Origin: Limnospira sp.
GTDB taxonomy: Bacteria > Cyanobacteriota > Cyanobacteriia > Cyanobacteriales > Microcoleaceae
DNA: 64,000 bases
Direction: 5' to 3'
NCBI GenBank assembly: GCA_050045915.1
Contig: JBNGCR010000004.1
Coordinates: 1,354 to 65,353, forward strand
Shown here: one piece after another, positions 7,349 to 48,643 of the stretch
Layout: every line of letters begins with the position of its first letter
Position numbering within the stretch: position 1 is the stretch's first letter
Position numbers and translations under genes: made by a program
Notes under the pieces: generated by a model
What the model was told of the DNA's origin: nothing
Seen by the model: the letters and a program-made list of their open reading frames with translations, nothing else
The model's database searches: none

Positions 7349-8665
7349 GTGACATCTCAATTCAGCGAATTTCTCCCAAATGTCGGTCTTATGGTTGAAA
7401 AATTTGGACAATCTGATCATCGTGATGCTTTGGAGGTTTGGTCTGAAGAGGCGACGATTCTGCATCGGCGAATTACCAATCTCAAGCAGCTTCTCGCCGA
7501 GGCGGAACGGGAGAATCGGGAGTTGCGATCGCAATTGCAGGCGAAAGAGCCAGTTCTAGGGGAAGCATCCTTAAAAACCGACATTCCCCCAGAATCGCAG
7601 TGGCAGGAAAGCGATCGCGCGGATATTGATAAGGTTGAGAATGAAGAGTCCGAATCTTCTGGGGGTGAAGAAACTGAGCCGGTTGACGATCTAGAAATTC
7701 AGGAGACGGAAAGCGATCGCACCGATGAGATTGAACCATCCGATCGTGGCGATGCCGGTCTGTCTGAAAACCGGGATAATTCCGGCGCGATCGGCAACGG
7801 AAAAAACGGCAGAGGGGATGTTTCGACCAACGGTTCCGCTAATGGAAAAAGCCTCGATCCGAATGCGATCGAACCCGTCCACAACGGTCGAGGAACCGCC
7901 ACTGCGATCGCACCTCCGAAACCCGAAATTGCCGCATCCGAGGAAGACGATCTCGACGAAATTCCCGACGAAGCCGAGATGTCCCTGTTCGATCATCTCG
8001 AAGAATTACGACAGCGCATTTTTTACTCATTAATTGCCGTTACCGGCGGCATTGTCCTTTGTTTCATCGCCGTCAAACCGATCGTTCAACTCTTAAAAAT
8101 TCCGGCCCAAGGCGTGAAAATGCTGCAACTTGCCCCCGGAGAATATTTCTTCGTCTCCCTGAAAGTTGCCGGATACAGCGGTTTGATCCTGTCGAGTCCA
8201 TTCATTATTTATCAAATCGTCCAATTTGTCCTTCCCGGACTCACCCGCCGCGAACGGCGAATTCTGGGGCCGATTTTCCTGGGTTCCACATTCCTATTTT
8301 TGATCGGTTTAATCTTTGCCTATGCCGCGATCGTCCCGGCCGCACTCAAATTCTTCATCGGCTACGGCGCGGAAGTCGTCGAACAACTTTGGTCGATCTC
8401 GGAATATTTTGAGTTTGTCCTGAAACTGCTATTCGTAACGGCGATCGCATTTCAGGTTCCCATCATTTTAATATTGTTGGGAATCCTGGGAATTGTGTCT
8501 TCCAAACAAATGTTCTCCGGTTGGCGATATGTGGTACTCGCAGCAGCCGTTCTAGGGGCAATTTTGACGCCTTCAACCGACCCGTTAACTCAAAGTCTCC
8601 TGGGGGGTGCGGTCGTCTTTTTATATTTCGGCGGCGTCGGGGTCGTGCGGCTGATGGGGAAATAG
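7349..8665 (+). CDS. tatC: Twin-arginine translocase TatC with a ~200-aa coiled-coil/acidic N-terminal extension
   Basis: The core begins at EMSLFDHLEELRQRIF (~7975), with LAPGEYFF, PGLTRRE and LTPSTDP motifs. The upstream part of the ORF is open and in frame from the GTG at 7349. Confidence 0.9.
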   Translation: MTSQFSEFLPNVGLMVEKFGQSDHRDALEVWSEEATILHRRITNLKQLLAEAERENRELRSQLQAKEPVLGEASLKTDIPPESQWQESDRADIDKVENEESESSGGEETEPVDDLEIQETESDRTDEIEPSDRGDAGLSENRDNSGAIGNGKNGRGDVSTNGSANGKSLDPNAIEPVHNGRGTATAIAPPKPEIAASEEDDLDEIPDEAEMSLFDHLEELRQRIFYSLIAVTGGIVLCFIAVKPIVQLLKIPAQGVKMLQLAPGEYFFVSLKVAGYSGLILSSPFIIYQIVQFVLPGLTRRERRILGPIFLGSTFLFLIGLIFAYAAIVPAALKFFIGYGAEVVEQLWSISEYFEFVLKLLFVTAIAFQVPIILILLGILGIVSSKQMFSGWRYVVLAAAVLGAILTPSTDPLTQSLLGGAVVFLYFGGVGVVRLMGK

Positions 8666-8673
8666 TTTTTGAT

Positions 8674-8700
8674 GGGCGATCGCAGAGGGTTGCCCCTACA
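8674..8700. repeat. Short REP-like palindrome (GGGCGA...TTGCCCCTACA)
   Basis: Imperfect hairpin ending in CCCCTACA just after tatC, resembling cyanobacterial REP-type repeats. Confidence 0.35.
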
Positions 8701-8852
8701 GTCAATCCTAGGGGGCGTTCCCCACCGTCACCGATGGAATTGACCGATTTTCTGAGGGGTTAAAGCCCAACAACAAATATGGACAATATGGGGGGGTTTC
8801 ATTCTCGTTCAAACCCACCTAAAAAAGATCGAATTTATCTCCCCTTATTAAG

Positions 8853-9022
8853 CAGGGCTGTTTCATTCTCGGTTCAAAATTGTCGGGGGCGACAGTGAAA
8901 ACCGTTGATGGGAGACAAGAGCAAGGGAATATCCGGTTAAAAACACCTTTTTATTCCGAAAAATCTCCCTCCGCTCCCTCTGCTCCCCTTGCCATTTTTC
9001 TGGGGAGAATGAAACGGCCGGG
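8853..9022. mobile_element. 170-bp MITE with ~18-bp imperfect terminal inverted repeats and a ~9-11-bp flanking duplication
   Basis: Left TIR CAGGGCTGTTTCATTCTC (8853-8870); right TIR GAGAATGAAACGGCCGGG (9005-9022). Flanks are CCCTTATTAAG (left) and CTCTTATTAAG (right). No coding capacity. Confidence 0.75.
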
Positions 9023-9054
9023 CTCTTATTAAGGGGATCTGGGGGGATCGATGC

Positions 9055-9396
9055 TTAAACCTGCACTTTCGGTTCGGAAGCCGGACGAATTTCGCTGCGA
9101 ACTTCGTAAAATGAAGTCATAGGTGCTTTGGCAAAAAGCGGAGTCATTTTGTCCAAAATAGCCTGGTAGGACTCATCTTGGTTGGCTTCCATGTCCTCGA
9201 TATTTTCCCAAAAAATGATCGCGATCCCGCGTTCGGTGCCGGGTTCTTGCAATAAGTAAGATCCCTTAAAACCTTTGGTATAGGTCGAAACGGCTTGTTG
9301 AAACAGTTCCCGAGCTTCTTCAAATTTGCCCGGTTTGAATTCGCCGATCGCGATGTAGGCATATTTGTGCCGAAGAAAATCAAAAAATTCAGACAT
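9055..9396 (-). CDS. Antibiotic biosynthesis monooxygenase (ABM)-like ferredoxin-fold protein
   Basis: GEFKPGKFEEA...GFKGSYLLQEPGTERGIAIIFWENIEDMEA pattern; 113 aa. Confidence 0.7.
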   Translation of the reverse strand: MSEFFDFLRHKYAYIAIGEFKPGKFEEARELFQQAVSTYTKGFKGSYLLQEPGTERGIAIIFWENIEDMEANQDESYQAILDKMTPLFAKAPMTSFYEVRSEIRPASEPKVQV

Positions 9397-9633
9397 AACT
9401 GACCACCCGTCATGCGTTTAGATAGTTGGATTGCCCGGAAGAGACAAACCCCCATTTTTTTCTATTGCTTCCCTTTGTTTCTCAGCCGATCTGATTGTTG
9501 GCTCGAATCGCAGACGCTGGGGGACAATCTCTGGCGAAGCGGATGCTAGGAATAAATGCTTACCACTTAATTCCTTTAAATCACCCTATCCCATTTGAGG
9601 ACAGAATGCAATCGGAGCGACGGATAATTTTTT

Positions 9634-10410
9634 TCAAAAGTGCCGAAGCTGAAGGTCGGCGTTGAAAAACTGCCGACAAATGCCGCCGGTTAACAGCCAA
9701 GTTGTCAGCAAATTGGCCAAAACTACGCCAAATAGAATCAAGATTTGATAAGAAACGGCATCTAAGGGTTCAATTCCGGCCAATAGCTGGCCGGTCAAAA
9801 TTCCCGGCAGGGTCACGGCCCCGGCGATCGCCATGGCGTTGAGGGTGGGGGTCAACCCGGCCCGGACCGCATCCCGGCGGTAGGAAGCAACGGCCCGTTC
9901 GGGAGTGGCCCCCAAACTGAGGTGGGTTTCGATTTCGATTTGGGAGGCGTTGAGGGTTTTGACCAACTGTTCCCCGGCCACCATCGCCGCGTTGAGACTG
10001 CCAGCCAAAAGCGCGGCTGCCACCGGAACCCAATATTGGGGGGAATAGATGGGATCGGGTCGGATGACGATCGCGACCAAATACAGCGAAATCGCCCCGG
10101 TACCGACCAGCAGGGACCCCCACACCCAAAAAAACAGCCGAGGAATTTTGCGGCCGATGCGGTTGCGGACGACCACCGCCACCAGGGAAATCATGGCCAA
10201 AATGAGGGCGATCGTTAACAAAGGGTGGATGCCGGCGGGGTCGAACACCACGGCGAAGACGTAGCCGACGACGGCCAACTGGGCGATCGCGCGGAGTCCC
10301 GACCCGGCCAACTCTCGGATCATCCCCAACCGCCAGCAGGCGGACAGGGCGATCGTCGCGGCGGCCAGTCCGAGTACCAGCAGCAAGTCTGTAAAATCTA
10401 AAGGAATCAA
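9634..10410 (-). CDS. fetB: UPF0014/FetB-type ABC transporter permease
   Basis: RAIAQLAVVGY, EIETHLSLGATP, GAVTLPGILTGQLLAG and AVSYQI motifs. Confidence 0.8.
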   Translation of the reverse strand: MIPLDFTDLLLVLGLAAATIALSACWRLGMIRELAGSGLRAIAQLAVVGYVFAVVFDPAGIHPLLTIALILAMISLVAVVVRNRIGRKIPRLFFWVWGSLLVGTGAISLYLVAIVIRPDPIYSPQYWVPVAAALLAGSLNAAMVAGEQLVKTLNASQIEIETHLSLGATPERAVASYRRDAVRAGLTPTLNAMAIAGAVTLPGILTGQLLAGIEPLDAVSYQILILFGVVLANLLTTWLLTGGICRQFFNADLQLRHF

Positions 10411-10452
10411 AATTCTGTTCGGCGACGAATTATCAATTTAATTTTAAGTGGT

Positions 10453-11604
10453 GTGAGCAGCGTGAATTCAATTCCCCCCCTCGACTTAACCCGACAGTAC
10501 GAAACCATCCGCGATCGCGTCAATACTGCCGTGCTGGACATTCTGGCTTCGGGACGCTACATCGGCGGGTCTGCCGTGGACTGTTTTGAGGAACGGTTCG
10601 CCGCCTATATCGGGGTCCCGGAAGCGGTGAGTTGCAACTCGGGGACCGATGCGTTATTTCTGGCGTTGCGGGCCTCGGACATCGGCCCGGGCGATCGCGT
10701 GATCACGACGGCCTTTTCATTTATCGCCACCTCGGAAGTGATAACCGCCGTGGGGGCGACTCCGGTATTTGTGGATATCGACCCCGAGACGTTCAATTTA
10801 GATCTCGACCAGGTGGAGGCGGCCGTCACCCCCGAAACCCGGGCGATCGTGCCGGTCCACTTATTCGGCCGGCCCGTGGATATGACCCGACTGATGGCGA
10901 TCGCGCGAAAACACAATTTGGTCGTCATCGAAGATTGTGCCCAGGCGACCGGGGCGACGTGGGAAGGTAAAAAAGTCGGTAGTTTCGGACATTTCGGCTG
11001 TTTCAGTTTCTTCCCGACCAAAAATTTGGGCGCCTGCGGGGACGGCGGTGCCGTGACGACCTCCGATCCGACCCTTGCCGAGAAAATCCAGGTGTTGAAA
11101 AATCACGGCCAGACCGGACGCTACAACTCGGAGGTGTTGGGGATCAACAGCCGGTTGGATGCGGTGCAGGCGGCGATTCTGACGATTAAACTGGACTATC
11201 TCGATCGCTGGAACGAGCGGAGGCGGGCGATCGCGACCCGTTACGGCCAATTGTTGGAAGCCGTCCCCGGCATCGTGCCCCCCCGGGACTGTGCGGGGGG
11301 CCGCAGCGTTTGGAACCAGTACACGATCCGGGTCGGGGGTGGCGATTCGGACTCGTCCCGGCGCGATCGCCTGCGGGAAGACCTGCAAAAACGGGGGGTG
11401 AGTACGATGGTTTACTACCCCATTCCCCTGCACCGGCAAGGGATACACCGGGACTTGGGTTATCAAACCGGACAACTCCCCGTTGCCGAACAAATCGGCG
11501 ATCGGGTGCTATCTTTGCCCCTGTTTCCAGAACTGTCCGAGGAACAGCAGGATCGCGTCATCTACAGTCTCAAAGATTGTCTCAAAGCGGTGGCGATCGG
11601 ATGA
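10453..11604 (+). CDS. DegT/DnrJ/EryC1/StrS-family sugar aminotransferase
   Basis: CNSGTDAL, VHLFG, IEDCAQA, FSFFPTKNLGACGDGG (PLP lysine) and NSRLD motifs. Confidence 0.93.
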   Translation: MSSVNSIPPLDLTRQYETIRDRVNTAVLDILASGRYIGGSAVDCFEERFAAYIGVPEAVSCNSGTDALFLALRASDIGPGDRVITTAFSFIATSEVITAVGATPVFVDIDPETFNLDLDQVEAAVTPETRAIVPVHLFGRPVDMTRLMAIARKHNLVVIEDCAQATGATWEGKKVGSFGHFGCFSFFPTKNLGACGDGGAVTTSDPTLAEKIQVLKNHGQTGRYNSEVLGINSRLDAVQAAILTIKLDYLDRWNERRRAIATRYGQLLEAVPGIVPPRDCAGGRSVWNQYTIRVGGGDSDSSRRDRLREDLQKRGVSTMVYYPIPLHRQGIHRDLGYQTGQLPVAEQIGDRVLSLPLFPELSEEQQDRVIYSLKDCLKAVAIG

Positions 11605-13492: not shown

Positions 13493-16400
13493 TTATGATG
13501 TCGGAGACTTTTCGGATGTCGAATTTTGCCAGAATTCGTAATCCTGTCGCAGTCGTGCGGGAAGCTGGGAGGGGTTTTGGATTTGGATTTGTTCGGGACG
13601 GTAATATAACATCGCCGCCATCAGGTAATGGATCGATCGCGGCACCTCCAAACCCCGCCGCAGGTAAGCCGCCAAGTTTTGCAGAAAATCCCATTCTTGT
13701 TGGGTTAATAATTCCTGTTGGAGGCGACTGTAAAGCAGCGATCGGTAGGCATCGCCCATGTCGCGATCGTAGGTTTTCTCTAGTTGTTCGTCCGGCAAAT
13801 TTAGCCAAAAATGCGCCATTTTCCACCGCAATTGTCGCAGTTCTGTCGCGATGCCGGCATCCGTCGGATCGATGTGAAACAGTTTCGTACAGCCGATCGC
13901 CCGATTGATAAATTGGGAATGGTCGAGTTGTATCGCTGCCGGTGAAAGTTCCTCGGCTATTTGGGGTTTCGGCTGCTGTTGGGCGGTGACAACCTGTTGA
14001 ATTTGAGCGATCGCTTCGGCATTTTCAAATATTCGTTGATAGTCGGGGTACAACCATCCCGGCAAGCGGTTCAAGGCATCCCTCACCAACATTTTACCGG
14101 GCTGACAGTACAGCATCACCACCATCAGGCAGTTGATAGAATTGGGTTGTTTCAATCCCGTCGCTGCCTTCGCCAGTTGGTTCACCAACACCTGTTCGGA
14201 GTCGGCGAGGGGTTCTTTCTGAATGCCGCGATTGAGAAGAATTTGATAACCTTTGCCGATGGGTTGTTGATAGAGAGTTTCGAGTTTTTCCGGCGGCTGA
14301 TTCAGCCAATATTCTGCCATCACCCGCCGGGTATGGCGCAATTTTTCCACCCCTTCCGCATTGGTCGGATCGAGATCGTATAAATTGACGCGATCCACCA
14401 ATTCAGCTAGAAATTGTTGGCGGACGGCGGGATTGTCTAACGCCACCGCCTCCTGCTGTCGCCGGCGGAGTTGGAACAGTTGGGCAAAAACGCCTCCCAT
14501 TTTGGTGGCGTAATCGCGACTGTCGAGAAATTCCGGATTTGCCGCCATTTTTTCGCGGATTTCTTGGCTTTTTTGCTGTCGCCACCCGCCATCAGTCGCC
14601 AACTGGACGGCGACATCGATGTAAGCTTGTTCGCTGGCGGGAATGGGTTCGTTGGGAAGCAGCGATCGCACCATTGCCGCCCCCATCCGCGATCGCAGCG
14701 TGTTCCCCTCCCACACCACTACCGGCAACCCCACTTCTAGGGGATCGACGAGGGAAGTTGTCCCGGCGTAGGGGAAAGAATCGAGGTAAATATCCCCCAA
14801 CTGCAACACGGCTTTGACTTGGGCTCGGTTGGGAAGTGCCTTGAGAATTTTCAACCGTTTCGGATCGATATTGTAGCGGTTGAGGAGGGCTTGCATTTGC
14901 TGTTGAAATGATACCTCCGGATATTGTTGCGTCCAACTCGCCCCAAACGGCAATAAGACTAAGACGGAATGGGGAACCGCTGCTAAAATTTTGACCCAAG
15001 TTTCTCGCAATTCGGGAATCAGTTTGTATAAATTCGCGCTGGAAATCAATGCGATCGCGTCGTCGGGTATTCCCAACTGTTGGCGGGTGGGAGGCGCGGC
15101 TGTTTTTTGCGGTTCGACGGTGTAGCTGAAACAGCAACCCGCCCCCGGAATTGTGACCCGTTTTTCCCGATACTGCTCGCTTCCGTCTTTCGGCAATTCC
15201 ATCAATTCCCCGGCGATGTAAAAGTCGATATTTTTGAATCCGGTGGTGACGGGAGAATTGAAACAGGTAAGTTGCACCCGCGCCAGCCGGTGACAGGCGA
15301 TCAGGGTGATTTCGTGGGTGACGGCGGTGATGTTGGTTCCCACCAATAAAATATCCAATTCATCCCCGCGAATGGTGTTGACTTGTTGCATCAGTGAACC
15401 GGACAGGCGGACGAATTTATCGGCGCGATTGCGGCTGTATTTTTCCACCGAATTACCGTCCGTTTGCAGGGCGTACAGCACTACTTCAAACTGTCCCCGA
15501 TCCAAATATTCAAAGGCGGGGAGGGTGGCGAATGTCTCCGTCATTGCCCCGAAATGCTTGTTCAAAATGCCGACGCGAATTCTTTGGCGATCGGGCGATC
15601 GCTGAGGGATTTCCCAGTCAATTTGAGCGCCCCGACTCCTCAGCGCAAACTCGATTATATCTCCCCGCAAGGTGTAAATTTCTTTGAGATTTTCGGTATT
15701 AAAATACAAGCTGATAACGCGACAATGAGTCGTGAAAAACCAGGCGATATTTTTCCAATTTTGAGAATCTGGGTTCGCGAAAATTGAGCGGTGTAAATAC
15801 CGCAGAAATTCCAGGAAATACTGGCAGTAGCGATCCGCTTCTCCCGTTTCCTGGAAAAATTCGGGATTGGAGAGGAGAAAATCCAAATAGTCCCCCGCCA
15901 ACCATTGGGGAAATGTCAGTTTTTCGTAGGCAATTGAGAGTTGATGGGGCCAGAAGTACAGCATCGCCGCGATCGCTGTTCTGTGGGAATAGTTGTGGGG
16001 GATCGCCCTCTTTATGGTTTGACTGTGGTGGATTTCCGAGTCGGTTTTAACTTCGTGTTTGATGCCACTTTTTAACAGCAATTTGTGCGCCTTTCCCGCC
16101 GCTCCGGTGTAATAGTTTGGGAGGGTTTGGGGGTCGCAATTTAACCAAAATTCGGCTAACTCCTGTCGCAACTGTCGCAGTTTATCCAAAAGGCTGCGAT
16201 CGCCACTTCCCCGGTTGTAGCGGTTCGCTAAATCCGTCACTTCCACCAAAAATTGGTCGGGATTTGATACAATATTGGCAGTGGAGCGAACGGGGTGGAT
16301 GACGATTCCCCGCTCCTTCAAAATCTCCGCCGCCTGACGCACTTCCTCCGCCGTGTATAAGTTGGGGTGAAGGGCGATAATTTTGGCTTTTTGGACGGCG

Positions 16401-19345
16401 AGGGTTTGGCGATCGGCGAGTAAGTTTTGCAGCCGCGAACCGTCGCCATATTGGCGGTAATACAAATAGGGTTTGGGGAGGCGATATCCCCGCCAGCCAC
16501 TTTCGTAAGCCGCCACCCAGAATTCCCAGTCTTCGAGTCCCGCCTCCATCTCCGTTTTGAAACCGCCGATGCGATCGCAAATCGATCGCCGAAATAGGGA
16601 CGTGATGCTGGCTTGATTGGACCGCAGCAGCCGACTCGGATCGAAATCCCCGTCGGTTTTGACTCCCTGCTGAGTTCCGAAATATTCGATATCGGTATAG
16701 ACGAACCCGATGTCCGGTTTTTGCTGCAAAATTTCCAGGGTTTCCGCCAGAAAATTGGGGTGCAACTTGTCGTCCGCATCCAAAAATAACAGGTAATTTC
16801 CCCGCGCCTGACTCAAGCCTAGATTTCGCGCCGCGACGACACCTTTATTGTCTTGATTGATGAGTTTTAAAGCGCGATCGCGGTGCAGTTCGATCAGCAA
16901 TTCAGCCACAACGGGTGTCCCGTCAGAACTGCCGTCATTGACGATGATACATTCCCAGTCGGCGATCGTTTGCGCCAAAAGACTATCGACGGCTTCCCTG
17001 AGATAATTCGCCTGATTGTAGCAGGGAATGATAATCGAAATTTGGGGAGTTGTGGGAGTGCCTTCACGCATAGAATCGAGTTCGCTTGGGGAAACGGGAA
17101 CCGGAACGGAAGTTGTCGGTTGGATGCCGCGCTGGGAAATGCCGTATTCGTGCCAAATCTGGCGCACTTCCTGAACCATTGCCGGCGATGAGTTTTCTAA
17201 ACCCTGGGGATGTTCGTAGTATAACCCAAAAACCTGCGGTAATTTCACAATTTTTTCCGTTTTGCCAACCCGCAGCCAAAATTCGTAATCCCCGGCGACT
17301 TGAAATTCCCCACGAAAACAACCATACTTTTCATGAAGGGATTTCCGCCACATCGGCTGCGGTCCTAAAATGCAGCGCCGTTCCAGTTCTTCGTAACTAA
17401 ATTCCGGCCAATCCCAGCGTCGGTTTGCTTGAGTATTATCAAAGGTTTCGTTTTCATTTTGGGTGATGAGTTGATCGCCATAGACGATCGCGACATTCTG
17501 ATTTTGATCCAAATAATCCGCCATCACTGCCAACGCATCTTTTCGGTGGCGATCATCGGTGTTGGCGTTGGTGATATAATCTCCTTTCGCTAATTTTATG
17601 GCTCGATTCCAAGCCGCGTAGAGGGTTTCCCTTGGTTCGGTGCGGTGATAAATAATGTGGGGATATTGGCTTTGGAAATCTGACGCGATCGCCCCCTCTT
17701 TTTCCTCCGAGGCACTGTCGATAATAATAATTTCCAATTCCCCGTTTTTATACAAAGTTTGACTCGTCAAATCGGCCAAGCATCCCCGCAGGAATTTTTC
17801 GGAATTGTAAGTCGAAACAATCGCAGAAACTTTCGGTTTCACTGGTAAATCATCCTGCAACTCCAGCCAATTTGGAATCGCGTCTCGGGCGATTTTTAAG
17901 GCTTGTTTCGCCAATGCGCGATCGTCAACTTTTTCGGCAGCTTGACTCAAATATCCCGCCACCCGTCCGCCGTCGCACCCCAATTGATAGGCGGCTTTAA
18001 ATTCCGCGATCGCCTCCAGATATCGCCCCTGACGCTGCAAAATTAGCCCCGTCCACAACCGTAAATAACCGTCACGAGGATAATAATTTCGGTAGTGAAA
18101 TAAACCCCCTCCTCCAGGATTACACAGTCCCGGAGAAGCCACCGCAATTTGGCGATCGCTTTTTAACTGTTCTGATAAATCATCAGATGTTAAACTCACT
18201 TTAAATTGAGGATCGGCATCTCCCAAACTCTCCACAAACAATGCTGCACCAGTTTTCCGGTTTCCCGGGTTTAAATAGTGTTTCCGTTTAGGAAACTCCA
18301 TTAACTGACGATAAGTTTGATTGATTTTTTCAATCGAAACCTCGGGATCGAAATGCTGTCTCGCGTATTCTCGCGCATTATTTCCCAGCCGCATCCGTTC
18401 CTCGGGATTGCGATATAAATACGCGATCGCCTCCCGATATTCCCGTTCGCTTTGCACCACCAAACCCGTCCGATCATGAATGACTAAATGCTTCACCCCG
18501 CCGTGGGGAAATACCACCGGAGGAACCCCCGCATACATCGCCTCTTGCAGACTTTTCTCGCTGGTTGCGTAGGTATCCTCAACCAGAGGATAGCCGAACA
18601 CGTCCAAAATTTCCAAAACCGATCGGATGTCTTCGACATACCCCCGAAACTCGAATTTTTCGGCGACTCCCAAATGATTCGCCTGCTGTTTGAGATGGTT
18701 TTCAATCCCGCCGCCGCAGACAATAAAACGGATGTCGGGAACTTCGACTCCCGCACTCATGGGGACATAATTTTGATGGAGTTTGGAGAAATCCACCGTC
18801 CCGATATACCCGACATTAAAAGTAGAATGGGGGCGGGGTTTAAACGATGCCAAACGACTAAAATCCGCAATTCCCGGAACCACACCGATCCGGTTATTTT
18901 GCAGCAAATCGGGGCGAGATTGGATGGCGGGTAAATCCAACGTGCGAGGCGTGGTTGCCAACAGAATATCCGAGTAATCGGTCAATTTTTTTGTGACGAC
19001 GTGGGGGGAGCGATCGCCCACCACTTTTAACCACACCAGCGACCGCATTTCCGGCAAATCTAACTGTAGAAATTCATAGAGTTCCGGACTGTTCCAAAAG
19101 TGAAAATGGACGATATCTGCCCATTCTATCTCACTTGTGATTGGTTCCAAATTGGGCTGTTGAATGACTTGCATTCCCGCCACTTCCGCCAATTTTACCG
19201 CCTCCGGCTGGGCGGGAGTCAGGGAAATTGTGCGATGATTTTGACCTCGTTTTTTGATGTGCGAATCTTTCGCGATCGCAACGACAGAACGCGACGCACC
19301 ACCCAATGAGAATCCTTGTAAAATATGTAAAATATTCATGTTCAT
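13493..19345 (-). CDS. Giant multidomain glycosyltransferase: GT4 - TPR-like - GT2 - GT2 - helical module - GT41 (SPINDLY/HMW1C-like) - two helical modules
   Basis: GT4: LDVFGYPL...SLQEAMYAGVPPV. GT2 domain 1: VSAIVSTYN...TNANTDD. GT2 domain 2: ISIIIPCYN...LFLDADD. GT41: RIRVGIL...SPVTTGFKNIDF...DIYLDSFPYAGTTSLVDPLEVGLPVV. ATG at 19345 preferred; the track ORF extends to 19387. Confidence 0.88.
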   Translation of the reverse strand: MNMNILHILQGFSLGGASRSVVAIAKDSHIKKRGQNHRTISLTPAQPEAVKLAEVAGMQVIQQPNLEPITSEIEWADIVHFHFWNSPELYEFLQLDLPEMRSLVWLKVVGDRSPHVVTKKLTDYSDILLATTPRTLDLPAIQSRPDLLQNNRIGVVPGIADFSRLASFKPRPHSTFNVGYIGTVDFSKLHQNYVPMSAGVEVPDIRFIVCGGGIENHLKQQANHLGVAEKFEFRGYVEDIRSVLEILDVFGYPLVEDTYATSEKSLQEAMYAGVPPVVFPHGGVKHLVIHDRTGLVVQSEREYREAIAYLYRNPEERMRLGNNAREYARQHFDPEVSIEKINQTYRQLMEFPKRKHYLNPGNRKTGAALFVESLGDADPQFKVSLTSDDLSEQLKSDRQIAVASPGLCNPGGGGLFHYRNYYPRDGYLRLWTGLILQRQGRYLEAIAEFKAAYQLGCDGGRVAGYLSQAAEKVDDRALAKQALKIARDAIPNWLELQDDLPVKPKVSAIVSTYNSEKFLRGCLADLTSQTLYKNGELEIIIIDSASEEKEGAIASDFQSQYPHIIYHRTEPRETLYAAWNRAIKLAKGDYITNANTDDRHRKDALAVMADYLDQNQNVAIVYGDQLITQNENETFDNTQANRRWDWPEFSYEELERRCILGPQPMWRKSLHEKYGCFRGEFQVAGDYEFWLRVGKTEKIVKLPQVFGLYYEHPQGLENSSPAMVQEVRQIWHEYGISQRGIQPTTSVPVPVSPSELDSMREGTPTTPQISIIIPCYNQANYLREAVDSLLAQTIADWECIIVNDGSSDGTPVVAELLIELHRDRALKLINQDNKGVVAARNLGLSQARGNYLLFLDADDKLHPNFLAETLEILQQKPDIGFVYTDIEYFGTQQGVKTDGDFDPSRLLRSNQASITSLFRRSICDRIGGFKTEMEAGLEDWEFWVAAYESGWRGYRLPKPYLYYRQYGDGSRLQNLLADRQTLAVQKAKIIALHPNLYTAEEVRQAAEILKERGIVIHPVRSTANIVSNPDQFLVEVTDLANRYNRGSGDRSLLDKLRQLRQELAEFWLNCDPQTLPNYYTGAAGKAHKLLLKSGIKHEVKTDSEIHHSQTIKRAIPHNYSHRTAIAAMLYFWPHQLSIAYEKLTFPQWLAGDYLDFLLSNPEFFQETGEADRYCQYFLEFLRYLHRSIFANPDSQNWKNIAWFFTTHCRVISLYFNTENLKEIYTLRGDIIEFALRSRGAQIDWEIPQRSPDRQRIRVGILNKHFGAMTETFATLPAFEYLDRGQFEVVLYALQTDGNSVEKYSRNRADKFVRLSGSLMQQVNTIRGDELDILLVGTNITAVTHEITLIACHRLARVQLTCFNSPVTTGFKNIDFYIAGELMELPKDGSEQYREKRVTIPGAGCCFSYTVEPQKTAAPPTRQQLGIPDDAIALISSANLYKLIPELRETWVKILAAVPHSVLVLLPFGASWTQQYPEVSFQQQMQALLNRYNIDPKRLKILKALPNRAQVKAVLQLGDIYLDSFPYAGTTSLVDPLEVGLPVVVWEGNTLRSRMGAAMVRSLLPNEPIPASEQAYIDVAVQLATDGGWRQQKSQEIREKMAANPEFLDSRDYATKMGGVFAQLFQLRRRQQEAVALDNPAVRQQFLAELVDRVNLYDLDPTNAEGVEKLRHTRRVMAEYWLNQPPEKLETLYQQPIGKGYQILLNRGIQKEPLADSEQVLVNQLAKAATGLKQPNSINCLMVVMLYCQPGKMLVRDALNRLPGWLYPDYQRIFENAEAIAQIQQVVTAQQQPKPQIAEELSPAAIQLDHSQFINRAIGCTKLFHIDPTDAGIATELRQLRWKMAHFWLNLPDEQLEKTYDRDMGDAYRSLLYSRLQQELLTQQEWDFLQNLAAYLRRGLEVPRSIHYLMAAMLYYRPEQIQIQNPSQLPARLRQDYEFWQNSTSEKSPTS

Positions 19346-19349
19346 CACA

Positions 19350-19703
19350 TTAATTTGACCGTTTTGCAGTTTTAATAGTTGATACAAGCATGGCGATAAT
19401 TTCTTTGCAGTCAGATTCTATGCTGGAAAACATTCTGTCGTCTATATAGTTTGTATCTTTGAGTAGAGAAATCCAATATTCAGTTTCGTTCGCTTCTTTG
19501 AGGGAGACGCTCATTTTATTGATAAAATCCGCCTTGCTTTGTCCAAATTCAGCTTCCCGAATCAATGCCCCAATCGCCGTACCACTTCTGAGAACCTGTC
19601 GGCTCAAAATAAATTCTTTTTTCTGTTTTTGTAGATATTGAGACAAGCGAACAATCCGAATTACAAACGCATAACTTTTATCTTTGAGAGGATTCTCCTT
19701 CAT
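19350..19703 (-). CDS. Four-helix-bundle protein (TIGR02436 / 23S rRNA IVP-like)
   Basis: KSYAFVIRIVRL...LSRQVLRSGTAIGALIREAEFGQSKADFINKMSVSLKEANETEYWISLL is the family signature. AT-rich. Confidence 0.9.
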   Translation of the reverse strand: MKENPLKDKSYAFVIRIVRLSQYLQKQKKEFILSRQVLRSGTAIGALIREAEFGQSKADFINKMSVSLKEANETEYWISLLKDTNYIDDRMFSSIESDCKEIIAMLVSTIKTAKRSN

Positions 19704-19715
19704 GATTCTCAATTG

Positions 19716-19750
19716 TTCATTTTTTATTTTTCATTTTTCATTTTTCATTT
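19716..19750. repeat. Heptamer tandem repeat (TTCATTT)n upstream of the four-helix-bundle gene
   Basis: About 4-5 imperfect copies read directly. Confidence 0.75.
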
Positions 19751-21395
19751 ATATTCTATAGTGGTTCAGTTTGTTGATTTGTTCTATGAAATTATTTTGT
19801 TTCAAAAAGTAGCTTGTATAGGCAATTTCTACCGTGCGATCGCAATCGTGAACGAACACATCCGTATTGCCGGACTGCATCGCCAATTGGGATGCGGTAT
19901 AAATGCTTTTCATCCGCCCCGGTTTGTCCGGCGTGTAGCCGGCGGGGGCATCCACTAAAATCCAATCCCAGGATGTCTCGTAAATCCATTGGGGTAAATC
20001 CAAAATCAGGCAATTCTCGCCGCGATCGAACCTCATCAACAGTTCCGCCCAATCTTTTCGTTTTGTGCCGTATTCGACATGATACGCCTCTAAATTCGCG
20101 CAATTCTGTTGAACCTGCGTCAGCCACTCCTGGCTATCTTCCAAAAAAATAGTTTTGCCCTCGCGGTTGATCTCCATCCACAACGCACTATCTTTTCCGA
20201 CTCCAAACACCAGCAAATTTCCCGGTGCCTTCTCGGAAATGCGATCGCCGATATAGCGGTATTCCTCGACCGTCATTTGACCGGGATTTCCCGCGACTAA
20301 GTTATCAATCATTGGATAGTAATCCGGGATATTCTCAACCCCATCGTCACCGACAATCCACTCCCACCGCAAATGTTCCGGCAACGTCCAATTCACCGCC
20401 GGATCGGGCTGGTGGGCGATCGGTTCCACATTGCCCCGCCAAGCGACTCCCATAATTTGCTTGGTTTGATAAATACCGACATTCCAACCGCGATCGCGGA
20501 AATAATTCCAACCTGCAAATACGTCCGGAGATACCAGATCGTGAAATAATATCAACGCATCGTCTGCCGCCACCCGTTCGCAAATTTGGGCATCCTGCAA
20601 AGGCCCGGGTGCCTCGTGATTTCCGTCGATAAAAATGAGCGGCCAGCGGCGGTTTTCTTGCGCCGCCACTTCCTGAACTTTCGCCGGACTGTAACCCGGA
20701 ATTAACTGCACTTTATCCAAAACTTGGGCCGACTGCAAAGAACCCCGGACGCGATCGCCGAAAATCGGGTTCGCCAGCCCCGGATCGACGACATCGAGAA
20801 GCACCCCACCCAATGCCAGGTGACAGGTTGACCACCCCAACCAACAGCCGATTTCCAACGCCCGTTGACCTTTAAATTTCAAGGCCGTATTATATAAAAT
20901 ATGGGCTTCATCTCGGGTGATAAATCCGACCGTCGGAAACTGTTTGTCCACATAGCGATTGTGGGGAATTTCCCGGCGGTGATACTGCCATTTTGAACTG
21001 AGATTATCGACCGTTAAATTGGGAAAATGGCGATCGGCTTTAATTTTCGCGAAGTGGGGGCAGACGTAATCCCCCGCCGGAAACGTCACGTCCCCGGCCG
21101 ATTCCCCGAAAATTTGCGATAAACTCTGCCGAGCGATCGCACACCCGGAGTCCAGTTCCACAGCCAAACGATAAGCCCGGATCGCCGCATCCGCCTTGTG
21201 TTGGGCTTGCAACGCCTGACCGAGGGTCTGATACGCTTCGCCGTAACCGGGTTCAATTTTGATCGCCTGATGACAAATAGCGATCGCCGATTCCAACTTT
21301 CCCGCAGCCAGATCCGCTTTCGCCCGGGCATTAAGTTGCGAAACCGCCGCATCTGCCGGAGAGCGATCGATATCGCGATAGACAGGATTCCCCAT
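19749..21395 (-). CDS. TPR + class I SAM methyltransferase (Methyltransf_24-like) + DUF579/GXM-like polysaccharide O-methyltransferase domain
   Basis: N-terminal TPR (AICHQAIKIEPGYGEAYQTLGQAL). Methyltransferase motifs ALEIGCWLGWST and IFIDGNH...ILFHD. C-terminal NLLVFGVGKDSALW, WDWILVDAPAGY..PGRMKSIYTA and TDVFVHDCDR. Confidence 0.8.
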   Translation of the reverse strand: MGNPVYRDIDRSPADAAVSQLNARAKADLAAGKLESAIAICHQAIKIEPGYGEAYQTLGQALQAQHKADAAIRAYRLAVELDSGCAIARQSLSQIFGESAGDVTFPAGDYVCPHFAKIKADRHFPNLTVDNLSSKWQYHRREIPHNRYVDKQFPTVGFITRDEAHILYNTALKFKGQRALEIGCWLGWSTCHLALGGVLLDVVDPGLANPIFGDRVRGSLQSAQVLDKVQLIPGYSPAKVQEVAAQENRRWPLIFIDGNHEAPGPLQDAQICERVAADDALILFHDLVSPDVFAGWNYFRDRGWNVGIYQTKQIMGVAWRGNVEPIAHQPDPAVNWTLPEHLRWEWIVGDDGVENIPDYYPMIDNLVAGNPGQMTVEEYRYIGDRISEKAPGNLLVFGVGKDSALWMEINREGKTIFLEDSQEWLTQVQQNCANLEAYHVEYGTKRKDWAELLMRFDRGENCLILDLPQWIYETSWDWILVDAPAGYTPDKPGRMKSIYTASQLAMQSGNTDVFVHDCDRTVEIAYTSYFLKQNNFIEQINKLNHYRI

Positions 21396-48133: not shown

Positions 48134-48643
48134 CTATCGGTTGTAGCGATTGTAGCGGTCGTAGGGATTGTTTCGATTCCCACCTCTATCAAACCGGTCG
48201 TAGCGGTCGTAGCGGTCATAGCGGTCATAGCGGTCATAGCGGTTATCCCGATCGTCCCGGTCGTAGCGGTCTTTGTACCGTTTTTCCCAGTCCTTTTTCT
48301 CGCGGTCGAGTTGGCGATCTAAGGCATCGTGAGCCTCCCGAATGACCCGCTCTTTTTGACTTTGGGAAAGGCGCTGATTGTGGGGTTTGTTCATCTCGTC
48401 CCGCATTTCCCGTTCGAGCTGCTCGTGTCGTCGTTGGCGGTACTCGTCAAAATCCCGCTCGAAGCGGTTTTTGTAATCGCGATCGGATCGGCGATCGGCG
48501 ATTGAGAATTCCTCCATTCCCGAAGTGCCCGTTTCTCGAACTGGCGAGGTCGGGAAAGCGATCGCGATCGCCGGAAGGGCGAACCCACCAGCCAGAACCA
48601 ATGTCGCGAGAGCCAAAGTGCGTTTCATTTTCGGTATCTCCAT
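48134..48643 (-). CDS. Secreted mixed-charge low-complexity protein with C-terminal (DRY)n repeats
   Basis: Signal peptide MKRTLALATLVLAGGFALPAIAIA (ATG at 48628 or 48643), an R/D/E/K-rich body and a tail YDRYDRYDRYDRYDRFDR encoded by 9-bp repeats at 48200-48244. Confidence 0.7.
   Translation of the reverse strand: MEIPKMKRTLALATLVLAGGFALPAIAIAFPTSPVRETGTSGMEEFSIADRRSDRDYKNRFERDFDEYRQRRHEQLEREMRDEMNKPHNQRLSQSQKERVIREAHDALDRQLDREKKDWEKRYKDRYDRDDRDNRYDRYDRYDRYDRYDRFDRGGNRNNPYDRYNRYNR

What the first reader, a model, noticed from the sequence alone, without database searches (positions are those of the whole stretch)
13493..21395. Candidate two-gene glycan assembly line: four glycosyltransferase domains plus two methyltransferase domains
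Seen: co-oriented genes encoding TPR-MTase-DUF579-like and GT4-GT2-GT2-GT41, separated only by a small AT-rich insertion. No wzx/wzy/wzm/wzt export genes lie nearby in the window. Knowledge: GT41 enzymes (OGT, SPINDLY, HMW1C) transfer sugars directly to proteins in the cytoplasm, while GT2 and GT4 domains can extend glycans. Inference: a self-contained system in which GT41 primes a protein, the fused GT2/GT4 domains elongate the glycan and the partner protein methylates or caps it. It might act on a large secreted surface glycoprotein. This is my best candidate for an undescribed system in the window.
Basis: inference. Interest (0 to 1): 0.75.

Follow-up and report, generated by a model that had tools for sequence, protein, structure and literature searches.

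The report
Modular protein-glycan assembly and methylation enzymes
Two neighbouring cyanobacterial genes encode a giant enzyme with four sugar-adding domains and a partner with two methyl-adding domains; because their relatives sit beside pilin and flagellin genes, they most likely build a short methylated sugar chain on a secreted filament or surface protein inside the cell.

Summary
No wzx/wzy/wzm/wzt genes are in the window.

The two large genes are a conserved unit. They are adjacent and syntenic in Limnospira/Arthrospira, split into separate genes in Oscillatoria acuminata, and fused in three different ways elsewhere.

Genomic context favours protein glycosylation. In 17 of 80 loci carrying the methyltransferase module, it lies beside a GT41 gene next to a type IV pilin gene. 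Giants carrying the N-terminal GT4 module lie beside flagellin genes in other phyla.

The claim that GT41 primes the protein is not secured. This GT41 is a distinct subtype. It keeps the essential Lys but lacks the His required in SPY/OGT, is never pilin-adjacent, and co-occurs with canonical pilin-adjacent GT41s. GT4-module giants stand beside flagellin with no GT41 at all.

Best reading: a cytoplasmic, cassette-swapping assembly line for a methylated protein O-glycan, with the target (pilin or oscillin-like protein) encoded elsewhere. This is a new variant of a known kind. Confidence is about 0.55.

The parts
19749..21395 (-). Methyltransferase partner gene, 548 aa: TPR - MT24 module - DUF579/GXM
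   Evidence: Limnospira orthologue at 72% identity, P0115.
21102..21395 (-). N-terminal TPR region of the partner (aa 1-98)
   Evidence: Pfam TPR_2/TPR_19. Resembles OGT/SPY TPRs in the PDB sequence search.
20361..21101 (-). MT24 module (aa 99-345): a conserved ~240-aa class I SAM methyltransferase cassette around Pfam Methyltransf_24
   Evidence: 60-80% identical across cyanobacteria, with 82 invariant columns. 315 relatives found in genome contigs.
19752..20309 (-). DUF579 / IRX15-GXM-type methyltransferase domain (aa 363-548)
   Evidence: PF21729 E 2.5e-48. TIGR01627 above its cut-off.
19350..19712 (-). Inserted four-helix-bundle (23S rRNA IVP family) gene; probably not part of the glycosylation function
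   Evidence: GC 0.369. Absent from the same junction in Limnospira. L010 carries a HigB-type pair there instead.
13493..19345 (-). Giant glycosyltransferase gene, 1950 aa
17861..19345 (-). GT4-lnk module (aa 1-495): a GT4 domain plus a TPR-like linker. It is the universally conserved anchor of the family.
   Evidence: 40-74% identical in cyanobacteria, Verrucomicrobiota and Acidobacteriota. 585 representative clusters at E<=1e-30, many of them stand-alone ~500-aa proteins.
17111..17860 (-). First GT2 domain (aa 496-745), part of the variable middle cassette
   Evidence: DxD-type motifs (DSAS, NTDD) are read directly from the sequence. The closest relative, P0002, carries an extra 257-aa SAM-MT cassette just upstream of this domain.
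16346..17080 (-). Second GT2 domain (aa 756-1000)
   Evidence: Motifs NDGS and DADD are present in the sequence.
15851..16270 (-). R1: first copy of a ~130-aa all-alpha repeat that precedes the GT41 domain
   Evidence: An R module precedes GT41 in 90 of 120 type-B proteins (86 have R-GT41 only, 4 also carry a C-terminal R2).
14426..15640 (-). GT41 type-B catalytic domain (aa 1236-1640). Key residues: K1441, N1438, Y1526, T1530, D1534, invariant E1270, and M1268 at the SPY H495 position.
   Evidence: PDB sequence search: SPY E 7e-27, XcOGT, hOGT. AF2 model pLDDT 83; Foldseek top hits are SPY, XcOGT, hOGT and ApNGT. Motif statistics.
14012..14425 (-). R2 repeat (aa 1641-1778)
   Evidence: No PDB fold match.
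13511..13930 (-). R3 repeat (aa 1806-1945)

Best explanation
The locus encodes a cytoplasmic enzyme pair that assembles and O-methylates a short O-linked oligosaccharide on a protein that is later exported.

The 1950-aa protein is a modular 'assembly line' with three parts. The first is a conserved N-terminal GT4-lnk module. The second is an exchangeable middle cassette, here two GT2 domains. The third is a C-terminal block R1-GT41(type B)-R2-R3. Each GT domain is inferred to add one sugar, or one kind of sugar, from a nucleotide sugar. The partner protein's two SAM-dependent methyltransferase domains (MT24 and DUF579/GXM) are inferred to methylate sugar hydroxyls. Its TPR and the R modules are inferred to mediate docking to the acceptor protein or between the two enzymes.

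The acceptor is encoded outside the window. The best candidates are a PilA-type type IV pilin or an oscillin-like RTX surface glycoprotein.

What is shown: domain content, co-conservation and fusion of the two genes, family-level association with pilin and flagellin genes, absence of export or lipid-carrier genes, and predicted cytoplasmic location.

What is inferred: that the acceptor is a protein, its identity, the order of sugar addition, and the methylation chemistry.

What is unresolved: which enzyme attaches the first sugar. It could be GT4-lnk, GT41 type B, or a separate canonical OgtA-type GT41 elsewhere in the genome. I rate these three as roughly equally likely.
For: (1) Functional unit.
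- MT and GT genes are adjacent and co-oriented in Limnospira platensis and L. maxima, 51 bp apart, at a syntenic queC-tatC...ftsH locus.
- An MT24-containing gene abuts or overlaps GT4-GT41B genes in L007, L008 and L096/097.
- O. acuminata carries the same domains as separate neighbouring genes next to ftsH.
- Fusions exist: MT24-DUF579-GT4-lnk in Trichodesmium (P0011, P0048); MT24-R-GT41B-R-R in at least 8 loci; MT24-DUF579-TPR-GT4 in Lyngbya L013.
- RNA contigs from three Arthrospira runs bridge the MT-GT junction.
- There is no terminator-like site between the genes.

(2) Protein target.
- All solved relatives of the C-terminal domain are protein glycosyltransferases of GT41.
- In 17 of 80 MT24 loci, a multi-domain MT24 protein neighbours a GT41 gene that lies within 354 bp of a PilA-like pilin gene.
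- L010 has MT + GT4-GT2-GT41B + 2 GT41 + 2 pilins.
- GT4-lnk giants lie directly after flagellin in a flagellar cluster (L094), beside two flagellins, fliD and fliS (L011), and in a NeuB/FkbM island near motAB (L095).
- An RTX/oscillin-like 675-aa protein lies 3 kb from the MT-GT4-GT41B pair in L096/L097, and HemolysinCabind proteins lie near the pair in L007.

(3) Precedent.
- The GT41 Ogt/OgtA is needed for PilA glycosylation in S. elongatus and N. punctiforme (PMC9306852).
- Microcystis CT pilin carries ten O-monosaccharides of 160/174 Da, and its cluster holds an OGT and an FkbM methyltransferase (PMC12397347).
- Oscillin is a glycoprotein with a homologue in A. platensis (PMC2853384).

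(4) No TM helix or signal peptide. No exporter, flippase or polymerase genes in the window, and none in any related locus inspected.

(5) Cassette indels between close relatives: P0002 equals the window protein plus a 257-aa MT cassette, with flanks 84-86% identical. Three different alleles occupy one Limnospira locus. This is as expected for a surface-glycan determinant.
Against: - There is no pilin, RTX or flagellin gene in the window, so the acceptor is not identified.
- The association with pilin and flagellin is at the family and module level, not for this locus. Type-B GT41 itself is never the gene next to the pilin.
- Many MT24 loci (lone ~320-aa genes in Nostoc) have no GT41 or pilin within 10 kb.
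- GT2, GT4, methyl-, sulfo- and pyruvyl-transferase cassettes are equally typical of polysaccharide pathways, and DUF579/GXM is a polysaccharide methyltransferase in plants.
- The type-B active site lacks the His that SPY and hOGT need (PMC9715652).
- There is no biochemical data for any family member.
- Pilins cross the membrane by Sec/SRP, so how a cytoplasmically built oligosaccharide would be tolerated is unclear (own knowledge).
Confidence: 0.55

Rival explanations
1. First reader's exact model. The system is self-contained: the GT41 domain puts the first sugar on Ser/Thr (or Asn) of a protein, GT2 and GT4 extend the chain, and the partner caps it with methyl groups.
For: - The GT41 fold and the nucleotide-binding residues are kept: K1441 = SPY K665, N1438 = N661, T1530 = T748, Y1526 = Y744.
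- It is the only GT41 in the window and in the Limnospira loci.
- An N-terminal all-alpha R module occupies the place of the TPR/AAD domains.
- Precedent: ApNGT (GT41) primes and a second enzyme extends (own knowledge). HMW1C makes both Asn-Glc and Glc-Glc links (PMC9715652).
Against: - The SPY H495 position is Met and is variable in the subtype (Q/H/R/S). H495A and H495F kill SPY (PMC9715652).
- In all 17 pilin loci, the pilin-adjacent GT41 is the canonical type A with His-Ser.
- Type B co-occurs with type A in L010, L036, L054 and L060, and with canonical TPR-GT41s in L011, L092 and L093. This argues for a different role.
- The L094 giant beside flagellin has no GT41.
Confidence: 0.2
2. A polymerase-terminator pair for a lipid-linked polysaccharide (O-antigen, sheath or EPS), as in ABC-transporter-dependent pathways. 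The giant GT would build the repeat and the methyltransferase would cap the chain. Primer and exporter genes would lie elsewhere in the genome.
For: - Multi-domain GT2/GT4 enzymes combined with a methyltransferase are the hallmark of K. pneumoniae O7 ORF6 and of WbdA/WbdD, and ORF6 has cyanobacterial orthologues (PMC11231755).
- Relatives carry sulfotransferase and pyruvyl-transferase cassettes.
- A weak RfbT-like hit appears in O. acuminata and Microcoleus neighbours.
- DUF579 methylates polysaccharide-bound GlcA in plants (PMC3921138 title and abstract).
- Cyanobacterial EPS genes are often scattered, and Arthrospira polysaccharides contain O-methyl sugars (own knowledge).
Against: - No wzm/wzt, wzx/wzy, WecA/WbaP-type primer or OPX/PCP gene is present in the window, and none in any of about 15 related loci read gene by gene.
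- The modelled C-terminal half has no long coiled-coil ruler; its longest helix is 27 residues.
- All characterised members of the GT41 family act on proteins.
- The recurrent neighbours are pilins and flagellins.
Confidence: 0.17
3. Synthesis of a soluble intracellular methylated oligosaccharide or polysaccharide, or glycosylation of a small molecule or lipid. No export would be needed (compare the mycobacterial polymethylated polysaccharides).
For: - All domains are cytoplasmic and no exporter gene is nearby.
- GT plus O-methyltransferase sets make MMP/MGLP in mycobacteria (own knowledge).
- TylF/CmcI-type O-methyltransferase cassettes in relatives are known from natural-product sugars.
Against: - There is no link to natural-product clusters in any locus.
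- The pilin and flagellin neighbourhoods are not explained.
- Strain-level cassette swapping is typical of surface antigens rather than of storage or chaperone glycans.
Confidence: 0.06
4. A regulatory, OGT-like intracellular protein modification (nutrient or stress signalling) rather than decoration of a structural protein.
For: The GT41 family includes OGT, SPY and Yersinia HmwC, which modify many intracellular proteins (PMC9715652; PMC11329713 abstract).
Against: - Four GT domains and two methyltransferase domains imply an elaborated glycan, not a reversible monosaccharide switch.
- No glycosidase partner is present.
- The context is structural filament genes.
Confidence: 0.02

Closest known systems
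Cyanobacterial Ogt/OgtA (GT41) pilin O-glycosylation (Synechococcus elongatus Synpcc7942_0051; Nostoc punctiforme OgtA)
   Same: GT41 catalytic fold, cytoplasmic location and cyanobacterial host. Modules of the window genes (MT24, DUF579, GT4, GT41B) lie in the same loci as ogtA-pilA pairs (PMC9306852).
   Different: The window domain is type B. It has no TPR on the same chain, the His-Ser motif is replaced by x-Thr-Glu, and it is not pilin-adjacent. It is fused to three other GTs, and no pilin gene is in the window.
Microcystis aeruginosa CT pilus (MrpC) gene cluster: pilin + O-GlcNAc-transferase homologue + FkbM methyltransferase
   Same: A GT41 combined with a methyltransferase, acting on a secreted cyanobacterial filament protein. 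The glycan residue masses of 160 and 174 Da (PMC12397347) would fit mono- and di-O-methyl deoxyhexose; that assignment is my inference.
   Different: The CT pilin carries monosaccharides only, made by separate small enzymes. The methyltransferase is FkbM-type, not MT24/DUF579. The pilin has a different fold. No CT pilin gene was looked for in the window beyond Pfam-negative ORFs.
Arabidopsis SPINDLY (protein O-fucosyltransferase, GT41) and bacterial XcOGT/TtOGT
   Same: These are the best sequence and fold matches. Lys, Asn, Thr and Tyr (SPY Y744, the small-donor pocket) are conserved, so the donor is probably smaller than GlcNAc (inference from PMC9715652).
   Different: The H495 equivalent is absent. 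There is an invariant Glu two residues later. There is no TPR superhelix. Three R modules are present instead.
HMW1C/ApNGT with alpha-1,6-glucosyltransferase: cytoplasmic N-glycosylation of adhesins
   Same: A GT41 enzyme with an all-alpha N-terminal domain instead of TPRs. ApNGT gives the best TM-score over the query (8j30, TMq 0.45, rmsd 6.4). A second GT extends the glycan. HMW1C itself also makes sugar-sugar bonds (PMC9715652).
   Different: That system makes N-linked mono- or di-hexose with no methylation, using separate proteins, and its acceptor is encoded next door.
ABC-transporter-dependent O-antigen polymerase/terminator enzymes (E. coli O9a WbdA/WbdD; K. pneumoniae O7 ORF6)
   Same: Large soluble multi-GT proteins combined with a methyltransferase. 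Catalytic modules are organised in exchangeable blocks (PMC11231755).
   Different: Those systems sit with wzm/wzt and use a coiled-coil ruler and a und-PP-GlcNAc primer. None of these features is seen here. They contain no GT41 domain.
Plant GXM/IRX15 (DUF579) glucuronoxylan 4-O-methyltransferases
   Same: The C-terminal domain of the partner is a clear family member (PF21729 E 2.5e-48; TIGR01627 passed).
   Different: The plant enzymes are Golgi membrane proteins acting on xylan. Here the domain is soluble, fused to TPR and MT24, and sits in a bacterial protein-glycosylation context. DUF579 was noted as unique to A. platensis among 38 cyanobacterial genomes (PMC2853384).
Flagellin glycosylation islands (e.g. 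Clostridioides difficile type B GT1-GT3; Maf/FlmG systems)
   Same: Cytoplasmic stepwise O-glycan build-up with methylation on a filament protein before export (own knowledge). GT4-lnk relatives lie beside flagellin genes.
   Different: Cyanobacteria lack flagella. Here the enzymes are fused into one giant polypeptide. The GT families differ.

Membership tests
GT41 (Pfam PF13844; OGT/SPY/NGT) | Two-lobe GT-B catalytic domain alignable over both lobes with solved GT41 enzymes | tested here: met
   phmmer against PDB: SPY 7y4i E 7e-27 over query 250-605; XcOGT and TtOGT likewise. AF2 model pLDDT 83. The top 50 Foldseek hits are all GT41.
GT41 (Pfam PF13844; OGT/SPY/NGT) | Essential phosphate-binding Lys (hOGT K842 / SPY K665) and the Thr loop | tested here: met
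   K1441 is present in 102 of 103 type-B sequences. N1438, T1530 and D1534 are conserved.
GT41 (Pfam PF13844; OGT/SPY/NGT) | Active-site His-Ser (SPY H495-S496 = hOGT H558), required for activity in SPY | tested here: not met
   The window has M1268-T1269. The position is Q/H/R/S/G across type B, while E1270 is invariant. H495A and H495F are dead in SPY (PMC9715652).
GT41 (Pfam PF13844; OGT/SPY/NGT) | N-terminal TPR superhelix that threads the acceptor peptide | tested here: not met
   No TPR precedes the domain. An R1 all-alpha module stands there instead. The TPRs are on the partner protein.
GT41 (Pfam PF13844; OGT/SPY/NGT) | Transfers sugar to a protein side chain | not testable with these tools
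   Only context is available: pilin and flagellin neighbourhoods of relatives.
Cyanobacterial OgtA-type pilin glycosyltransferase (type A here) | ~745-aa protein with motifs xHSVGW / QRGYK / NGATTT, encoded next to a PilA-like pilin | tested here: not met
   The window domain has the type-B motifs. No pilin motif exists in the window.
DUF579 / IRX15-IRX15L-GXM (PF21729, TIGR01627) | Sequence match above the curated thresholds | tested here: met
   PF21729: 164.6 bits (cut-off 27.8). TIGR01627: 161 bits (cut-off 149.85).
DUF579 / IRX15-IRX15L-GXM (PF21729, TIGR01627) | 4-O-methylation of glucuronic acid on a glycan | not testable with these tools
   No biochemical data exist for bacterial members.
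ABC-transporter-dependent O-polysaccharide polymerase/terminator systems | Clustered with wzm/wzt (and usually sugar-nucleotide genes) | tested here: not met
   None in the 64-kb window and none in the related loci read.
ABC-transporter-dependent O-polysaccharide polymerase/terminator systems | Coiled-coil 'ruler' in the terminating enzyme | tested here: inconclusive
   The longest helix in the modelled aa 1001-1950 is 27 residues. The partner protein and aa 1-1000 were not modelled, and no coiled-coil predictor was run.
GT4-lnk family (defined here) | ~495-aa GT4 plus TPR-like linker, 40% or more identical, usually N-terminal in multi-domain proteins | tested here: met
   585 representative clusters at E<=1e-30, against 25,554 generic GT4 hits at E<=1e-3.

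The most novel reading that the evidence does not exclude
GT4-lnk / GT41-type-B giants would form a widespread, previously unrecognised class of template-free 'megasynthases' for protein O-glycans. A constant GT4-lnk head and a constant R-GT41B tail would bracket freely exchangeable GT, methyl-, sulfo- and pyruvyl-transferase cassettes. Cassette swapping would then directly rewrite the glycan on pilins, oscillin-type surface proteins (cyanobacteria) and flagellins (other phyla). Type B would be the first GT41 lineage specialised for sugar-to-sugar elongation, or for a new base-catalysed mechanism using the invariant Glu, rather than for priming. Bacterial DUF579 would be a protein-glycan methyltransferase.
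Probability: 0.35. Interest if true: 0.8.

Novelty: new variant of a known kind. Interest (0 to 1): 0.6.

Why it matters
Cytoplasmic glycosylation of bacterial filament proteins is known mostly from single-sugar or few-enzyme systems. If the best explanation is right, the consequences would be as follows.

- **Domain order as a predictor.** One polypeptide would carry a whole glycan pathway whose domain order could predict glycan structure. Natural cassette indels (window versus P0002; three Limnospira alleles) offer a ready-made test of that rule.
- **Range of GT41.** A defined GT41 subtype without the canonical His but with an invariant Glu would widen the mechanistic range of a family that includes human OGT and plant SPY.
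- **First bacterial role for DUF579/GXM.** This would give the domain its first bacterial function.
- **Handle on cyanobacterial surface chemistry.** It would offer a genetic handle on the surface of motile filamentous cyanobacteria, including the food organism Limnospira/Arthrospira. Pilin and oscillin glycans there probably affect gliding, aggregation, and recognition by phages and grazers.
- **Tools for glyco-engineering.** The modules could be useful parts for cytoplasmic glyco-engineering.

Tried and rejected
- **RNA evidence for the window itself.** Only DNA metagenomes hold at most 15% of its words and there are no RNA runs. The Arthrospira orthologue L012 was used instead. This rests on contigs only, so it is consistent with co-transcription but not proof.
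- **Acceptor search in the window.** There is no type IV pilin motif and no RTX nonapeptide run. Pfam-negative ORFs show no Ser/Thr-rich secreted candidate.
- **Fold of the R2-R3 repeats.** The model is confident (pLDDT 81), but nothing in the PDB matches (best E 0.19, generic alpha-solenoids).
- **PDB sequence search of GT4-lnk.** It gave only weak generic GT4 hits (MshA, TreT). For the partner protein, only the TPR matched.
- **Self-BLAST of the giant protein.** It missed the repeats; they needed motif-anchored alignment.
- **Hps pseudopilin idea for the pilin neighbours.** Rejected. HpsC scores about 19 bits against a cut-off of 200, and the best resemblance is to PilA/GspG.
- **Four-helix-bundle gene as part of the system.** Rejected. 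It is absent in orthologous loci and has foreign GC content.
- **Terminator scan.** It found nothing between the genes, and the overall count is not above shuffles.
- **Early mis-numbering, corrected.** The His in the D-F-x-x-H-S motif corresponds to hOGT H558, not H498 (PMC9715652).

Full report
**Observation**

The region holds three tightly packed, co-oriented minus-strand genes.

- **Upstream gene (21395→19749, 548 aa).** It carries TPRs (aa 20-85), a Methyltransf_24 core (180-286) and an IRX15/IRX15L/GXM (DUF579) domain (378-546; E 2.5e-48). The DUF579 domain also passes NCBIfam TIGR01627.
- **Middle gene.** 36 bp downstream lies a 120-aa four-helix-bundle / 23S-rRNA-IVP family gene (19712→19350). 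Its GC is 0.369, against 0.50-0.52 for its neighbours.
- **Giant gene.** 4 bp further on, the giant gene starts (ATG 19345→13493, 1950 aa). It has GT4 (about aa 1-370), two GT2 domains (about 496-745 and 756-1000) and a GT41-like domain.

Pfam scans of every ORF of at least 150 aa in the window found no Wzx, Wzy, Wzm or Wzt. The neighbours are housekeeping genes: queC, tatC, a DegT aminotransferase, an ABC1 kinase, a divergent ftsH, cobQ and a TolC-like OEP. Neither large protein has a signal peptide or a TM helix. The single hydrophobic peak is a Rossmann strand.

**Finer anatomy of the giant protein**

By eye and by alignment, three ~130-aa all-alpha repeats flank the GT41 domain: R1 at aa 1026-1165, R2 at 1641-1778 and R3 at 1806-1945. 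No Pfam family covers them.

An AlphaFold2 model of aa 1001-1950 is confident (pLDDT 83, pTM 0.68). Its 50 best PDB matches are all GT41 enzymes: SPY, XcOGT, hOGT, TtOGT and ApNGT. A separate model of R2-R3 (pLDDT 81) matches nothing solved; the best hit has E 0.19.

**The two genes are one unit**

- *Limnospira.* L. platensis and L. maxima carry orthologues (MT 72% identical) 51 bp apart at a syntenic queC-tatC…ftsH locus. They have no four-helix-bundle gene between them.
- *Three further cyanobacterial lineages.* An MT24-containing gene abuts or overlaps a GT4-GT41 gene in L007, L008/9 and L096/97.
- *Oscillatoria acuminata.* The same domains appear as separate neighbouring genes beside ftsH.
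- *Fusions link the two window proteins in three independent ways.*
  - MT24-DUF579-GT4-lnk… in Trichodesmium (P0011, P0048).
  - MT24-…-R-GT41-R-R in at least eight loci.
  - MT24-DUF579-TPR-GT4 in Lyngbya (L013).
- *Expression.* No RNA data exist for the window's organism. In Arthrospira platensis, RNA-seq contigs from three runs run across the MT-GT junction. These are contigs only, so this is consistent with co-transcription but does not prove it. No terminator-like site separates the window genes.

**A modular family**

Mapping window domains onto 113 homologues shows a constant head, a variable middle and a constant tail.

- *Head.* GT4 plus a TPR-like linker ("GT4-lnk", aa 1-495).
- *Middle.* Zero to several GT2, GT4 and SAM-MT cassettes. 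In other phyla the middle can also hold sulfotransferase and pyruvyl-transferase cassettes.
- *Tail.* R-GT41-R(-R).
- *Minimal forms.* GT4-lnk-R-GT41-R, 1260-1510 aa.

The closest relative (P0002) equals the window protein plus a precise 257-aa SAM-MT cassette between lnk and the first GT2. Its flanks are 84-86% identical. Limnospira strains carry 2280-, 2506- and 2557-aa alleles at one locus.

GT4-lnk is a discrete family. It has 585 representative clusters at E≤1e-30, against 25,554 generic GT4 hits at E≤1e-3. Many members are stand-alone ~500-aa proteins.

**What the family works on: context**

A scan of one genome per species with the MT24 module found 315 relatives. The 80 best loci are nearly all named as cyanobacteria.

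- In 29 of the 80 loci a GT41 gene or domain is present.
- In 17 there is a type IV pilin gene.
- In all 17, that pilin lies within 354 bp of a GT41 gene, which in turn neighbours the MT24 protein.
- Eight of these pilin ORFs were checked. They have N_methyl plus Pilin_GH domains and resemble PilA/GspG, not Hps pseudopilins.
- The MT24 proteins in these loci are themselves multi-domain. Microcoleus L018 has FkbM×2-GT11-GT4-MT24-TylF. Tychonema L020 has GT4-MT24-CmcI-TylF.
- L010 (Cyanobacterium sp.) has MT + GT4-GT2-GT41 + two further GT41 + two pilins.

Outside cyanobacteria, GT4-lnk giants are found in flagellar contexts.

- One lies directly after flagellin in a fliW-csrA-flagellin cluster, and that protein has no GT41 domain (L094).
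- One lies beside two flagellins, fliD and fliS, together with TPR-GT41 genes (Opitutus, L011).
- One lies in a NeuB/pyruvyl-transferase/FkbM island near motAB (Acidobacteriota, L095).

In L096/L097 a 675-aa RTX-type (oscillin-like) protein with 17 GGxGxD-like repeats lies 3 kb from the MT-GT pair. L007 has HemolysinCabind proteins of 320 and 202 aa near its pair.

No exporter, flippase, polymerase or lipid-carrier primer appeared in any locus read.

Published work fits this picture.

- GT41 Ogt/OgtA is needed for PilA glycosylation, and ogt neighbours a pilin in 38% of 201 cyanobacterial genomes (PMC9306852).
- The Microcystis CT pilin bears ten O-monosaccharides of 160/174 Da, and its cluster has an OGT homologue and an FkbM methyltransferase (PMC12397347). 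That these masses fit mono- and di-O-methyl deoxyhexose is my inference.
- Oscillin is an extracellular glycoprotein with a homologue in A. platensis, which also has three prepilin genes (PMC2853384).

**The GT41 domain is a distinct subtype**

Aligning 51 GT41 domains from the fetched loci separates three types.

- *Type A.* About 745 aa and pilin-adjacent. It keeps the SPY/OGT His-Ser (…xHSVGW…), QRGYK and NGATTT motifs.
- *Type B.* This is the window's type. Its motifs are RxGILxxHFxPxTETFATLP, SGANFYKIIPE, LDSYPYSGATSLxDP and HRLARVQ…SPVTTG.
- *Type C.* Motif …SYSGTLW…. It lies just downstream of MT24 ORFs.

Statistics across 103 type-B sequences:

| Window residue | SPY equivalent | Conservation in type B |
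|---|---|---|
| K1441 | K665 | 102/103 |
| N1438 | N661 | 98/103 |
| T1530 | T748 | 83/103 |
| Y1526 | Y744 | Y/F/H |
| M1268 | H495 (= hOGT H558) | variable: Q29, H17, R16, S14 |
| E1270 | – | 102/103 |

In SPY, K665A, H495A and H495F are dead. S496 holds the acceptor peptide backbone, and Y744 restricts the donor to a sugar smaller than GlcNAc (PMC9715652).

Type B is never the gene next to the pilin. It co-occurs with type A in L010, L036, L054 and L060, and with canonical TPR-GT41s in Opitutus, Azospirillum and Sulfuricaulis islands. Of 120 type-B proteins, 90 have an R module N-terminal to the GT41 domain: 86 with the plain R-GT41 architecture and 4 that also carry a C-terminal R2. Lengths are mostly about 570-670 aa.

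So the domain is conserved and surely functional, but its role need not be priming. HMW1C shows that a GT41 can also make sugar-sugar bonds (PMC9715652).

**Mechanism proposed**

This section is inference unless marked otherwise.

Both proteins act in the cytoplasm; the absence of TM helices and signal peptides is shown. A first sugar is placed on Ser/Thr of an exported protein by one of three candidates: GT4-lnk, the type-B GT41, or a separate OgtA-type enzyme.

- *GT4-lnk.* It is the universal head and the only plausible primer in the flagellin-linked L094 protein. GT4 protein O-GTs such as GtfA exist (own knowledge).
- *Type-B GT41.* This has family precedent.
- *A separate OgtA-type enzyme.* It would be encoded elsewhere in the genome.

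The remaining GT domains then extend the chain. MT24 and DUF579 O-methylate it. The TPR and R modules dock the partners or the acceptor. The middle cassette sets the glycan structure, which explains strain-level indels.

The polysaccharide rival (WbdA/WbdD- or K. pneumoniae O7 ORF6-like; PMC11231755) remains possible. It gains no support from gene context.

**Novelty and verdict**

The principle of a GT41 plus a methyltransferase decorating a cyanobacterial filament protein is published. The following were not found described in the literature searched:

- the fused, cassette-swapping giant enzyme;
- the GT4-lnk family;
- the type-B GT41 with its R modules;
- a bacterial DUF579 in this role.

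This is a new variant of a known kind. My confidence is about 0.9 that the two genes form a unit, about 0.65 that the acceptor is a protein, and about 0.3 each for the three candidate primers.

**Limits**

- Pilin calls rest on a motif regex, validated on eight ORFs.
- GT41 subtypes are assigned by motifs.
- The 80 loci are the best matches, not a random sample.
- No biochemical data exist.
- The acceptor is not in the window.

Noticed in passing
window 19350-19712 (-); compare L010:9455-9968: The junction between the methyltransferase gene and the giant GT gene has captured small foreign genes. Here it holds a four-helix-bundle (23S rRNA IVP/TIGR02436) gene with GC 0.37. In Cyanobacterium sp. 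L010 the same junction holds a HigB-type toxin pair. In Limnospira it holds nothing.
   Followed up: partly
L012:~8645-11073 (Arthrospira platensis PCC 7345 orthologous locus): RNA-seq contigs of very high mean depth (about 560-1690x) cover the region upstream of the MT orthologue and the first 470-1400 nt of its ORF. The rest of the operon sits at 2-15x. In L005 the upstream region holds a TnpB/Cas12f1-like_TNB remnant. The abundant RNA was not identified.
   Followed up: no
L096:14042-19207, L097:8350-13515, L007:14034-19819: There is conserved synteny downstream of MT-GT4-GT41B pairs. A DUF3288 gene and a ~790-aa TPR protein follow the pair in all three loci. Next come RTX-type proteins: a 675-aa glycine-rich, oscillin-like protein with 17 GGxGxD-like repeats in L096/L097, and two HemolysinCabind proteins of 320 and 202 aa in L007. 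These are candidate acceptors.
   Followed up: partly
window 10453-11604 (+); L008:14196-16360; L005:18836-19894: Sugar-nucleotide-modifying genes lie near the GT genes. The window has a DegT/DnrJ/EryC1 aminotransferase 2 kb from the GT 3' end. L008 has DegT plus an epimerase/dehydratase. Limnospira has a UDP-GlcNAc 2-epimerase-type gene. They may supply donor sugars.
   Followed up: no
L093:632-3332 (Sulfuricaulis limicola): Three tandem ~270-290-aa ORFs without any Pfam hit lie next to an island containing three GT41 genes (one of type B), a TPR-sulfotransferase, a GT4 and an FkbM methyltransferase. They may be the glycosylated substrates there.
   Followed up: no
P0325, P0351: Two type-B GT41 proteins carry a SEC-C motif (PF02810), a small zinc-binding motif known from the SecA C-terminus.
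   Followed up: no
P0049; L015, L029, L035, L085, L090: A third GT41 subtype (type C, motif YLHSYSGTLW, no His) lies immediately downstream of MT24 multi-domain genes in pilin loci. In one case it is fused to GT4-lnk. Its role is as open as that of type B.
   Followed up: partly
window 48134-48643 (-): A 169-aa ORF has an N-terminal signal-like hydrophobic segment and a C-terminal run of RYD/DRY repeats (…RYDRYDRYDRYDRYDRFDR…). It has no Pfam family.
   Followed up: no
window 32728-33801 (+): A stand-alone GT2 glycosyltransferase (357 aa) lies next to a NUDIX-NrtR-like regulator and a cytidylyltransferase-like gene. No link to the finding was seen.
   Followed up: no
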